Assembly (NCBI RefSeq): GCF_030013595.1
Contig: NZ_CP122768.1
Strand: one strand, 5' to 3'
Source of the DNA: Escherichia coli
GTDB taxonomy: Bacteria; Pseudomonadota; Gammaproteobacteria; Enterobacterales; Enterobacteriaceae
DNA: 64,000 bases
Positions 29,101 to 32,100 of this stretch are shown piece by piece (positions within the stretch are counted from its first letter, which is position 1; the number at the start of each line of letters is the position of its first letter). Made by a program: the position numbers.

Positions 29101-32100
29101 AGCAACTGATTGGTATTCTGGTGCGTGAAGCCGGAAAAACCTTCAGTAACGCCATTGCCGAAGTGCGCGAAGCGGTCGATTTTCTCCACTACTACGCCGG
29201 ACAGGTGCGGGATGATTTCGCTAACGAAACCCACCGTCCATTAGGGCCTGTGGTATGTATCAGTCCGTGGAACTTCCCGCTGGCTATTTTCACCGGGCAG
29301 ATCGCCGCCGCACTGGCGGCAGGTAACAGCGTGCTGGCAAAACCGGCAGAACAAACGCCGCTGATTGCCGCGCAAGGGATCGCCATTTTGCTGGAAGCGG
29401 GTGTACCGCCAGGCGTGGTGCAATTGCTGCCAGGTCGGGGTGAAACCGTGGGCGCGCAACTGACGGGTGATGATCGCGTGCGCGGGGTGATGTTTACCGG
29501 TTCAACCGAAGTCGCTACGTTACTGCAGCGCAATATCGCCAGCCGCCTGGACGCTCAGGGTCGCCCTATTCCGCTCATCGCTGAAACCGGCGGCATGAAC
29601 GCGATGATTGTCGATTCTTCAGCACTGACCGAACAAGTCGTAATAGATGTGCTGGCCTCGGCGTTCGACAGTGCAGGTCAGCGTTGTTCGGCACTGCGCG
29701 TGCTGTGCCTGCAAGATGAGATTGCCGACCACACGTTGAAAATGCTGCGCGGCGCAATGGCCGAATGCCGGATGGGTAATCCTGGTCGCCTGACCACCGA
29801 TATCGGTCCGGTGATTGATAGCGAAGCGAAAGCCAATATTGAGCGTCATATTCAGACTATGCGTAGTAAAGGCCGTCCGGTGTTCCAGGCAGTGCGGGAA
29901 AACAGTGAAGATGCCCGTGAATGGCAAAGCGGCACCTTTGTCGCCCCGACGCTGATTGAACTGGATGACTTTGCCGAATTGCAAAAAGAGGTCTTTGGTC
30001 CGGTGCTGCATGTGGTGCGTTATAACCGTAACCAGCTGCCGGAGCTGATCGAGCAAATTAACGCTTCCGGTTATGGTCTGACGCTTGGCGTCCATACGCG
30101 CATTGATGAAACCATCGCCCAGGTCACTGGCTCGGCCCATGTCGGTAACCTGTACGTTAACCGTAATATGGTGGGCGCAGTGGTCGGGGTGCAGCCATTC
30201 GGCGGCGAAGGGTTGTCCGGCACCGGGCCGAAAGCAGGCGGTCCGCTCTATCTCTACCGTCTGCTGGCGAATCGCCCGGAAAGTGCACTGGCAGTGACGC
30301 TCGCGCGTCAGGATGCAGAGTATCCGGTCGATGCGCAGTTGAAAGCCGCATTGACTCAGCCGCTAAATGCACTGCGGGAATGGGCGGCAAACCGTCCAGA
30401 ATTGCAGGCGTTATGTACGCAATATGGCGAGCTGGCGCAGGCAGGAACACAGCGATTGCTGCCAGGGCCGACGGGTGAACGCAACACCTGGACGCTGCTG
30501 CCGCGCGAGCGCGTGTTGTGTATTGCGGATGATGAGCAGGATGCGCTGACTCAGCTCGCCGCCGTGCTGGCGGTGGGCAGCCAGGTGCTGTGGCCGGATG
30601 ACGCGCTGCATCGTCAGTTAGTGAAGGCATTGCCATCGGCAGTCAGCGAACGTATTCAACTGGCGAAAGCGGAAAATATAACCGCTCAACCGTTTGATGC
30701 GGTGATCTTCCACGGTGATTCGGATCAGCTTCGCGCATTGTGTGAAGCAGTTGCCGCGCGGGATGGCGCAATTGTTTCGGTGCAGGGTTTTGCCCGTGGC
30801 GAAAGCAATATCCTGCTGGAACGGCTGTATATCGAGCGTTCGCTGAGTGTGAATACCGCTGCCGCTGGCGGTAACGCCAGTTTAATGACGATCGGTTAAG
30901 CAGGAAGCCGGAGGATGTTACAACCTCCTCCGGCATCTTTAACGTGGTCGAATCCCCTCAATAATAATCCGCTGCACGTTTTCAACCGTTTGATTGAAAA
31001 ATACCTCATCGCGCAACGTCGCGCCTGTCACCGCCTCCACCTGAGGGGCGAAATCGGCGTAATGTTGAGTGGAAGCCCAAATCATAAAAATCAAATGCTG
31101 CGGGTCAATCGGCGCGAGTTTGCCGCTTTTTACCCAACCGGCAATCAGCGCCGATTTCTCATCAATTAATGCCTTCAAATCGCCCGTCAGTTCATCCATT
31201 AACAACGGCGCGCCTGCCAGCATCTCCATACAAAACAGACGTGAAGCCTGCGGATAATCGCGTGAGACTTCCAGCTTCAGACGGATGTACTCTTTGATCG
31301 CCGCCAGCGGGGCGAAATCTTCACGAAACGCTTTTAACGGTGCCAGCCAGATATCGAGAATCTGCCGCAGTACGGCTATATACAGCGCCTCTTTTGACGG
31401 GAAGTAATACAGCAAATTGGTTTTTGAAACGCCTGCCAACTCTGCGATCTGCTCCAGCCTTGTGCCGTGAAAACCGAATTGTGAAAAAGTGTCCAGTGCT
31501 GCGCTAAGAATCGCTTTTTTCTTCGCGCTCACTGCGCGCGAACGTTTACCCGTTGTTTTCACTGCGCCTTGCGTCATGCGCTCTCCCCTCTTGTAGATTG
31601 GCAACAGGATAGCAAAACCCCTGCCCGGCCTCGACCTTCTGCACTCTCATCGCGCACGGATGCATGTTTTATGTGCAACTGTTTTGACCGTTTAGTCCAC
31701 TTTTTTCCAGATATTTCAGACAACCAAACATTAACACATTAATAACATTCACTTTTTAAAAACTGGCATCCGCTTTGCAAACAAGCGATTAGGCGGCTGA
31801 AAAGGATATGCAGGATGCAGCGCCCCGTCTGACTTTCACTTTACGAGACGAAGAGAGGTTGATGATGAAAATTGGCGTATTCGTACCTATTGGCAACAAC
31901 GGCTGGCTCATTTCGACCCACGCGCCGCAGTACATGCCGACCTTTGAACTGAATAAAGCCATTGTGCAAAAAGCGGAGCACTACCATTTCGACTTCGCCC
32001 TGTCGATGATCAAACTGCGTGGCTTTGGCGGCAAAACTGAGTTCTGGGATCACAACCTTGAGTCGTTCACCTTGATGGCGGGGCTGGCGGCCGTCACCTC

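What the first reader, a model, noticed from the sequence alone, without database searches (positions are those of the whole stretch)
31578..31807. rutR-rutA intergenic region: sigma54 promoter element and a RutR-like palindrome
TGGCA-N7-TaGCA at 31600-31615 fits the sigma54 -24/-12 spacing and is oriented toward rutA. TTGACCGTTTAGTCCA at 31684-31699 resembles the RutR operator (TTGACCAnnTGGTCAA) with imperfect symmetry. Both are consistent with known NtrC/sigma54 and RutR control of the rut operon.
Basis: partly seen in the sequence, partly recalled or inferred. Interest (0 to 1): 0.25.

Follow-up and report, generated by a model that had tools for sequence, protein, structure and literature searches.

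The report
Known rutR-rutA control region, promoter misplaced

Summary
The window is E. coli putA-rutR-rutABCDEFG. It is the reverse complement of the published RutR site TGGACTAAACGGTCAA. It is the best RutR matrix hit in the 64 kb window and is conserved in 80/80 related Enterobacterales loci.

Its GG-N10-GC spacing is right, but it scores 4.8 bits on a matrix built from 134 ChIP-seq sigma-54 sites, below all 135 bound sites, and ranks 243rd in the window. Its GG is lost in most genera and in one E. coli strain. It also lies upstream of the NtrC sites, on the wrong side.

The real promoter is CTGGCATCCGCTTTGCA (31763-31779). It scores 14 bits, second best in the window. It coincides with the published ChIP-seq and genomic SELEX peaks and is conserved in 80/80 loci. 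Two NtrC-like sites sit at about -142 and -121, and the RutR box at about -98.

So the general interpretation holds, one element is misassigned, and nothing in the finding is new.

The parts
31684..31699 (.). RutR operator (RutR box) TTGACCGTTTAGTCCA. Its centre is about -98.5 from the predicted rutA start point, and it lies downstream of the published rutR start point.
   Evidence: Reverse complement of the published site TGGACTAAACGGTCAA. Best RutR matrix hit in the window, 16.8 bits. Present in 80/80 orthologous loci, always with A4 and T13, at 76-80 or 87-89 bp from the sigma-54 motif. Binding, uracil release and operator mutations are published.
31763..31779 (+). True sigma-54 promoter of rutABCDEFG, CTGGCATCCGCTTTGCA. 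GG is at 31765-66 (-25/-24) and GC at 31777-78 (-13/-12). Predicted start point is about 31790.
   Evidence: Identical to Bonocora 2015 site OS10; the ChIP-seq peak is 8 bp and the genomic SELEX peak 3 bp from the motif centre. Leave-one-out matrix score 14.0 bits, rank 2 in the window. Conserved in 80/80 loci at 12.3-18.5 bits.
31599..31614 (+).
   Evidence: 4.78 bits, below all 135 bound sites, rank 243. Not found by a search of the text-held ChIP-seq supplementary files. The GG is lost in most genera. It reads TGTTA in E. coli SCPM-O-B-8794, where the rest of the region is nearly identical.
31640..31656 (.). NtrC-like enhancer site 1, TGCACTCTCATCGCGCA, centre about -142.
   Evidence: 9/12 match to TGCACC-N5-GGTGCA. 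Together with site 2 these are the only two matches to TGCAY-N7-GYGCA in the 64 kb window. An NtrC-consensus site with 2-4 mismatches lies upstream of the RutR box in all 80 loci. Published schemes show NtrC sites here. Direct binding was not tested here.
31661..31677 (.). NtrC-like enhancer site 2, TGCATGTTTTATGTGCA, centre about -121. It is 21 bp from site 1 and ends 6 bp before the RutR box.
   Evidence: The outer TGC...GTGCA is conserved across Enterobacteriaceae.
31606..31614 (-). Conserved extended -10-like motif TGCTATCCT (TGCTATGCT in most genera) facing rutR. Candidate proximal sigma-70 promoter of rutR, with a predicted start near 31599.
   Evidence: TGnTATnnT is present at this place in 71/80 loci, against 0.014 expected by chance. 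Only the non-consensus positions vary. It is absent from the four loci with no rutR found upstream. No start-point data; the published rutR start lies upstream of the RutR box.
31731..31747 (.). Strongly conserved AT-rich block TTAACACATTAATAACA between the RutR box and the sigma-54 promoter, centre about -51. IHF-like.
   Evidence: At least 90% column identity over most of the block in 22 genera. By my reading, the minus strand TATTAATGTGTTA (31744..31732) matches WATCAANNNNTTR at 8 of 9 specified positions. No IHF binding data were found.
31575..31577 (-). rutR start codon.
31791..31829 (+). Candidate 5'-terminal stem-loop of the rut mRNA. Arms are 31791-31797 and 31823-29. The loop holds the conserved AAGGAUAUGCAGGAUGCA and the annotated rutA ATG (31808).
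   Evidence: 94% of cells paired, two pairs with compensatory changes, and 0/500 shuffles reach the observed score. The stem was chosen by eye from these same sequences. The block was found, by one fixed sequence pattern, in 34 of 80 loci.
31862..31867 (+). Conserved rutA start (ATGATG, MMKIG...), preceded by the conserved Shine-Dalgarno sequence GAGAGG.
   Evidence: Homology in all 80 loci starts here. The upstream ATG at 31808 is in frame and open in only 10 of the 34 loci that have the block.

Best explanation
Window 31578-31807 is the known divergent control region of rutR and rutABCDEFG.

Shown in the literature: RNA polymerase with sigma-54 sits on CTGGCATCCGCTTTGCA (31763-31779). rut expression needs NtrC under nitrogen limitation. 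RutR without uracil binds the single box at 31684-31699 and is released by nanomolar uracil. That box is needed for rutR autoregulation.

Inferred from sequence, spacing and conservation: phosphorylated NtrC binds the two tandem sites at 31640-31656 and 31661-31677 (about -142 and -121, two helical turns apart). It oligomerises and reaches the closed complex by looping, probably helped by a bend at the conserved IHF-like block at about -51. Transcription then starts near 31790. RutR, bound 6 bp from NtrC site 2 and between enhancer and promoter, most likely represses by hindering NtrC assembly or the loop, not by occluding the polymerase. The RutR-to-promoter distance falls into two classes one helical turn apart, which fits a requirement for helical phasing.

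Its 3' half is the complement of a conserved extended -10-like motif that faces rutR.
For: Locus identity.

Sigma-54 site: published motif and peaks; leave-one-out matrix 14.0 bits, rank 2 of 127,968; conserved in 80/80 loci.

RutR box: published sequence, affinity and uracil response, operator mutations, independent matrix rank 1, 80/80 conservation with offsets of 76-80 or 87-89 bp.

NtrC-like pair: the only two matches in the window to TGCAY-N7-GYGCA, 21 bp apart, and conserved. NtrC dependence and NtrC sites are cited.

Distal element rejected: 4.78 bits, below every bound site; not found by a search of the text-held ChIP-seq supplementary files; GG not conserved. In the same ChIP-seq data set, site pairs 128-154 bp apart (hycA/hypA, zraP/zraS) are listed as separate peaks, so a bound site 165 bp away should have been resolved.
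Against: No experimentally mapped rutA start point was found in the papers I could read; Bonocora 2015 marks this promoter as 'predicted' in EcoCyc. NtrC and IHF binding at the named sequences was not tested here, and I could not read the primary papers (Zimmer 2000; Shimada 2007 was not attempted). How RutR represses from about -98 is inference. One paper reports that loss of RutR alone does not raise rutA mRNA in exponential phase, and another describes RutR's role at rutA as 'activation'. ChIP-seq was done in M9 medium at mid-log only, so weak conditional occupancy of the distal element is not strictly excluded.
Confidence: 0.9

Rival explanations
1. One reading: TGGCA-N6-TAGCA at 31599-31614 is the sigma-54 promoter of rutA, or a second upstream one. 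It would fire near 31625 and give a leader of about 183 nt.
For: GG-N10-GC spacing is correct, it points toward rutA, and it is one of only two matches to TGGCA-N6-TWGCA in the window. It is identical in K-12.
Against: It scores 4.78 bits, below all 135 bound sites. A replaces the T before GC, which occurs in 1 of 134 sites. The ChIP-seq and SELEX peaks lie 165-173 bp away, and a search of the text-held supplementary files found no entry for it. The GG is absent in most genera and in one E. coli strain. The NtrC sites would lie at +15 to +52, downstream of its start. 17% of random stretches of this length score as well.
Confidence: 0.03
2. The DNA under the reader's element is a proximal sigma-70 promoter of rutR of the extended -10 class (minus strand TGCTATCCT, 31614..31606). 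Its start would be near 31599 with a leader of about 22 nt, giving basal rutR expression independent of the RutR box. This adds to the best explanation and does not exclude it.
For: TGnTATnnT is conserved at this place in 71/80 loci from Escherichia to Pantoea and Erwinia, against 0.014 expected. Variation is confined to the positions that matter least for a -10 element. It is absent from the four loci with no rutR found upstream. It sits 28 nt from the rutR ATG, just upstream of the Shine-Dalgarno sequence.
Against: The published rutR start is upstream of the RutR box, at a coordinate above 31699. The generic two-hexamer promoter scan found nothing here, and there is no good -35. The E. coli version TATCCT is weaker than TATGCT. 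No start-point data could be retrieved. The block could instead be an RNA or protein site in the long rutR leader.
Confidence: 0.4
3. A sigma-54 promoter facing rutR: minus strand CGGGCAGGGGTTTTGCT (31627..31611) would drive rutR under nitrogen limitation.
For: It scores 12.3 bits in this strain, rank 8 in the window, and 10.3 bits in K-12. Similar hits occur in Silvania, one metagenome-assembled Enterobacteriaceae genome and Buttiauxella massiliensis.
Against: A -24 GG with the right spacing is missing in most genera; only 6 of 80 loci score 10 bits or more on the minus strand of that zone. The GC of the -12 part becomes GT in many genera (TTGTT). No ChIP-seq or SELEX peak was reported there. 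The conserved part is better explained as TGnTATnnT.
Confidence: 0.04

Closest known systems
E. coli K-12 rutA sigma-54 promoter and rutR-rutA RutR box (Shimada 2007/2008; Bonocora 2015 site OS10; Nguyen Le Minh 2010/2015)
   Same: The locus is the same. The published coordinates map onto 31763-31779 and 31684-31699.
   Different: Only strain polymorphism. About 8 substitutions lie in the non-conserved 31706-31750 stretch and a few in the leader. One of them (31792, G in the window against C in K-12 and the other strains) breaks one pair of the candidate leader stem (my reading of the alignment).
glnAp2-type NtrC-dependent sigma-54 promoters
   Same: A -24/-12 promoter with two tandem 17-bp NtrC sites roughly 100-150 bp upstream and on the same helical face. 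The glnAp2 geometry is from established knowledge and was not tested here.
   Different: A TetR-family repressor site (RutR) is inserted between enhancer and promoter, and the region is shared with a divergent regulator gene.
RutR box at carAB P1 (TTGACCATTTGGTCCA)
   Same: The same 16-bp palindrome family, with comparable affinity (KD 8.6 against 9.5 nM) and the key A4 and T13 kept.
   Different: At carAB RutR acts positively from -184.5. Here it acts as a repressor, and the box matches the consensus at 11/14 positions against 13/14.

Membership tests
   GG 31600-01, GC 31612-13
   4.78 bits against a minimum of 6.76 among 135 ChIP-seq sites; A at a position where 126 of 134 sites have T and 1 has A
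   Literature data only: the ChIP-seq peak at 1073263 and the SELEX peak at 1073268 map to the other element, and a search of the text-held supplementary files found no entry for this one
   The NtrC-like sites at 31640-77 lie downstream of it
   Median best plus-strand score in the equivalent zone is 3.1 bits; the GG is lost in most genera and in E. coli SCPM-O-B-8794
Sigma-54 (-24/-12) promoter: element 31763-31779 | Consensus match, occupancy, upstream enhancer sites and conservation | tested here: met
   14.0 bits, rank 2; published peaks; NtrC-like sites at about -142 and -121; 80/80 loci at 12.3 bits or more. A mapped start point was not available.
RutR operator (TetR-family RutR box) | 16-bp palindrome TTGACCAnnTGGTCAA with A at position 4 and T at position 13 | tested here: met
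   11/14 match with A4 and T13 present; 16.8 bits, rank 1 in the window
RutR operator (TetR-family RutR box) | Bound by RutR and released by uracil | not testable with these tools
   Published for this exact sequence: ChIP-chip and EMSA, KD 8.6 nM with half-inhibition at about 9 nM uracil, operator-constitutive mutations
RutR operator (TetR-family RutR box) | Conserved next to rut genes | tested here: met
   80/80 loci at 14.1 bits or more, with a fixed offset to the sigma-54 motif
NtrC enhancer (upstream activating sites) | Two or more 17-bp sites resembling TGCACC-N5-GGTGCA, 80-150 bp upstream of a sigma-54 promoter | tested here: met
   Two sites with 3 mismatches each, 21 bp apart, the only matches to the relaxed pattern in the window; conserved
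NtrC enhancer (upstream activating sites) | Direct NtrC binding at these sequences | not testable with these tools
   NtrC sites are drawn in a published scheme. The primary paper Zimmer 2000 is not held.
Extended -10 sigma-70 promoter (candidate proximal rutR promoter) | TGnTATAAT-like motif | tested here: met
   TGCTATCCT here and TGnTATnnT in 71/80 loci
Extended -10 sigma-70 promoter (candidate proximal rutR promoter) | Transcription start 6-8 nt downstream | not testable with these tools
   No start-point data retrievable. The published rutR start is elsewhere.
IHF site (31732-31744) | WATCAANNNNTTR and IHF binding | tested here: inconclusive
   8 of 9 consensus positions by my reading, and strong conservation. 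No binding data found.

The most novel reading that the evidence does not exclude
Two undescribed conserved features flank the known elements.

It is conserved from Escherichia to Pantoea and Erwinia, lies downstream of the RutR box and so would escape the roadblock, and would give basal RutR synthesis.

(2) The rut mRNA may begin with a conserved 5'-terminal stem-loop whose loop carries two GGA motifs (AAGGAU and CAGGAUG). From memory this resembles the CsrA recognition sequence. It also contains the ATG now annotated as the rutA start, so the true RutA start would be 54 nt downstream, and the leader would be a post-transcriptional control or stability element.
Probability: 0.35. Interest if true: 0.3.

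Novelty: already known. Interest (0 to 1): 0.1.

Why it matters
The finding itself adds nothing new. The sigma-54/NtrC and RutR control of rut is textbook-level E. coli regulation, and the sites are in the literature.

The useful outcome is a correction. A loose -24/-12 string match picked the wrong element, although a near-consensus site bound in vivo lies in the same intergenic region. Matrix scoring together with comparison across related species separates the two cleanly.

Two minor leads may be worth a bench test by someone working on rut regulation or annotation: a conserved extended -10-like motif in front of rutR, and a conserved leader stem-loop that puts the annotated rutA start codon in doubt.

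Tried and rejected
- Rfam search of 31300-32100 at E-value up to 1 found no known RNA family.
- The generic sigma-70 two-hexamer scan of 31500-31900 found no promoter. The one terminator-like hit, on the minus strand at 31827..31811, is a short hairpin inside the candidate rutA leader element (its loop and 3' arm), read on the opposite strand.
- I tried to get mapped start points from the Cappable-seq supplement. The held files contain nothing for rutR, rutA or the coordinates, and may be truncated.
- Zimmer 2000 is not held. Searches for rutRp/rutAp, IHF at rut and CsrA-rutA gave nothing relevant.
- A sigma-54 promoter on the minus strand facing rutR was considered (12.3 bits) and rejected for lack of conservation and of any reported peak.
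- The leader block was considered as the coding N-terminus of RutA. This was rejected because it is in frame and open in only 10 of 34 loci, was not found in the other 46, and is interrupted by a stop in one E. coli strain.
- The K-12 sigma-54 site OA02, downstream of rutG, was looked for in the window and not found within 2 mismatches.
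Full report
**Identity of the locus.** The window around the finding is E. coli putA, rutR (minus strand, ATG at 31577) and rutA onward (plus strand, annotated ATG at 31808). An 801-base query covering it matches 5,421 of 5,426 complete E. coli genomes, annotated as rutR and rutA. The intergenic region aligns without gaps to K-12 MG1655, where rutA is 1072863-1074011 and rutR is 1074242-1074880. The mapping is K-12 (NC_000913.3) coordinate = 1105819 minus window coordinate.

**Checking the observation: RutR palindrome.**
- TTGACCGTTTAGTCCA is at 31684-31699 exactly as stated.
- At three mismatches to the consensus the window has 5 matches against 2.6 expected, so the string match alone proves little.
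- I built a symmetrised matrix from the 15 other high-affinity RutR sites of Shimada et al. 2008. It ranks this site first in the whole window at 16.8 bits; the training median is 15.3.

**Checking the observation: sigma-54-like element.**
- It reads TGGCA-ACAGGA-TAGCA, so the spacer is 6 nt, not 7. The GG-N10-GC spacing is nevertheless the canonical one.
- The loose pattern TGGCA-N6-TWGCA has a second match in the window, TGGCATCCGCTTTGCA at 31764-31779.

**Which sigma-54 element is real: scoring and binding data.**
- I took the 135 motifs under the sigma-54 ChIP-seq peaks of Bonocora et al. 2015 and left out the rutA site itself to avoid circularity.
- The downstream element CTGGCATCCGCTTTGCA (31763-31779) scores 14.0 bits, second best of 127,968 positions.
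That is below the weakest of the 135 bound sites (6.76) and ranks 243rd.
- The main penalty is the A before the -12 GC. 126 of the 134 training sites have T there and one has A.
- 17% of random stretches of the same length in this window contain something at least as good.
- The literature agrees. Bonocora's site OS10 is exactly CTGGCATCCGCTTTGCA, with motif centre 1073271 and peak centre 1073263 in U00096.2. This maps to window 31771.
- The genomic SELEX peak of sigma-54 polymerase is at 1073268.
A search of the text-held supplementary files found no entry for it.
- Site pairs 128-154 bp apart (hycA/hypA, zraP/zraS) are listed as separate peaks in the same data set.

**Comparison across related species.**
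- A scan with RutA gave 80 orthologous loci from Escherichia, Klebsiella, Raoultella, Enterobacter, Kosakonia, Leclercia, Lelliottia, Buttiauxella, Mangrovibacter, Pantoea, Erwinia, Tatumella and others. Nearly all have rutR divergent.
- The proximal sigma-54 element is present in all 80, at 12.3-18.5 bits.
- A RutR box of at least 14.1 bits, always with the critical A4 and T13, is present in all 80. It lies at a fixed offset of 76-80 or 87-89 bp from the sigma-54 motif, two classes about one helical turn apart.
- Just upstream of the box are NtrC-consensus sites with 2-4 mismatches out of 12.
- In the window these are TGCACTCTCATCGCGCA (31640-31656) and TGCATGTTTTATGTGCA (31661-31677). They are the only two matches to TGCAY-N7-GYGCA in 64 kb and lie 21 bp apart.
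The GG is replaced in most genera, for example GTGCCA, TTGCCC and CGCCAT.
- E. coli SCPM-O-B-8794 reads TGTTA there, although the surrounding region is almost identical.

**Geometry.**
- Bonocora's rule places the start 19 bp downstream of the motif centre. The proximal promoter should therefore fire near 31790.
- GG and GC then fall at -25/-24 and -13/-12. The NtrC-like sites fall at about -142 and -121, the RutR box at about -98.5, and a strongly conserved AT-rich block (TTAACACATTAATAACA, 31731-31747) at about -51.
- By my reading, the complement of that block matches the IHF consensus WATCAANNNNTTR at 8 of 9 specified positions.
- This is the classical enhancer-bend-promoter layout.

**How it works.**
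- Shown in published work: sigma-54 occupancy at the proximal element; NtrC-dependent expression under nitrogen limitation (cited); RutR binding to this box with KD 8.6 nM and release at about 9 nM uracil; and the requirement of the box for uracil-sensitive autoregulation of rutR, whose published start lies upstream of the box.
- Inferred here: the assignment of the two 17-mers to NtrC and of the AT-rich block to IHF.
- Also inferred: RutR, bound 6 bp from NtrC site 2 and between enhancer and promoter, acts by hindering NtrC assembly or looping.
- The literature is not uniform on the size or even the sign of RutR's effect on rutA.
- No mapped rutA start point was available to me, and the promoter is flagged as 'predicted' in the 2015 table.

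- The 3' half (AGGATAGCAAAA) is conserved, but as its complement TTTTGCTATCCT, which is TTTTGCTATGCT in most genera.
- The pattern TGnTATnnT is present at this position in 71 of 80 loci against 0.014 expected by chance.
- Variation is confined to the n positions and hexamer positions 4-5: TGCTATGCT, TGTTATGAT, TGATATGCT, TGCTATTAT.
- It is absent from the four loci with no rutR found upstream.
- That is the signature of an extended -10 sigma-70 element facing rutR, 28 nt from its ATG.
- It conflicts with, or adds to, the published rutR promoter upstream of the RutR box, and I could not obtain start-point data.
- I rate it a 40% lead, not a result.
- A sigma-54 reading of the minus strand (CGGGCAGGGGTTTTGCT, 12.3 bits) was rejected. 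Its -24 part is not conserved and no peak is reported.

**Side observation on the rutA leader.**
- The block TGCAGGATGCAGCGCC starts at the annotated rutA ATG (31808). A fixed sequence pattern found it in 34 of the 80 loci.
- It is in frame and open to the conserved MMKIG start (31862) in only 10 of these. It sometimes begins with CTG, TTG or GTG, and is interrupted by a stop in one E. coli strain.
- It was not found in the other 46 loci. In some of these the sigma-54 motif is only 56 nt from MMKIG.
- Flanking it are arms (31791-97 and 31823-29) that pair in 94% of cells, with two compensatory pairs. The stem was picked by eye from the same sequences, so this is weak evidence.
- The loop has two GGA motifs that, from memory, resemble the CsrA recognition sequence. 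I found no literature linking CsrA to rutA.

**Verdict.** The RutR box and the general sigma-54/NtrC/RutR logic are right and already known. The specific sigma-54 element is a chance match, and the real one, 165 bp downstream, was overlooked. Novelty: already known. Interest: low.

Noticed in passing
window 31604-31618 (minus strand TTTTGCTATCCTG): An extended -10-like motif TGnTATnnT facing rutR is conserved in 71/80 Enterobacterales loci (0.014 expected by chance) and absent from the four loci with no rutR found upstream. It may be an undescribed proximal rutR promoter; the published rutR start lies upstream of the RutR box.
   Followed up: partly
window 31791-31829 and 31808 / 31862: The conserved leader block TGCAGGATGCAGCGCC is flanked by a candidate 5'-terminal stem (94% paired, two compensatory pairs). 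The annotated rutA ATG at 31808 lies in the loop and is in frame and open in only 10 of the 34 loci that have the block. The conserved start with a good Shine-Dalgarno sequence is 31862/31865, so the 382-aa RutA annotation may be 18-19 residues too long. The loop has two GGA motifs, CsrA-like from memory.
   Followed up: partly
window 31731-31747: TTAACACATTAATAACA is almost invariant across genera. Its complement matches the IHF consensus at 8 of 9 positions, and it sits between the NtrC/RutR sites and the sigma-54 promoter. No IHF data for rutA were found.
   Followed up: partly
80 orthologous loci (L002-L081), offset between RutR box and sigma-54 motif: The distance from the RutR box to the sigma-54 motif falls into two classes, 76-80 bp and 87-89 bp, about one helical turn apart. 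This suggests a constraint on helical phase.
   Followed up: partly
window 59198-59213 (inside gfcE, plus strand): TGGACAAAATGGTCAA scores 16.1 bits on the RutR matrix, second best in the window and close to the real operator. It lies inside gfcE (polysaccharide export protein) and is not among the 20 published ChIP-chip targets.
   Followed up: partly
window 9555-9571 (plus strand, antisense to the ORF at 8446-10056): CTGGCACAAAACTTGTA is the best sigma-54 matrix hit in the window (15.3 bits). It lies antisense inside an EAL-domain protein gene that is present in only 411 of 5,426 complete E. coli genomes.
   Followed up: partly
window, expected near 37360 (downstream of rutG): The K-12 sigma-54 ChIP-seq site OA02 (CCGGCATGAACAATGCG), listed about 5.6 kb from rutA, has no match within 2 mismatches anywhere in this window. 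This strain therefore differs from K-12 there.
   Followed up: no
window 31706-31750 compared with K-12: Substitutions between this strain and K-12 cluster in the stretch between the RutR box and the conserved AT-rich block, where by my reading K-12 has a TAAAAT -10-like hexamer (TGAAAT here). The published K-12 rutR promoter may therefore be weaker or different in this strain. The whole 801-bp region is only 95-99% identical to most E. coli genomes.
   Followed up: no
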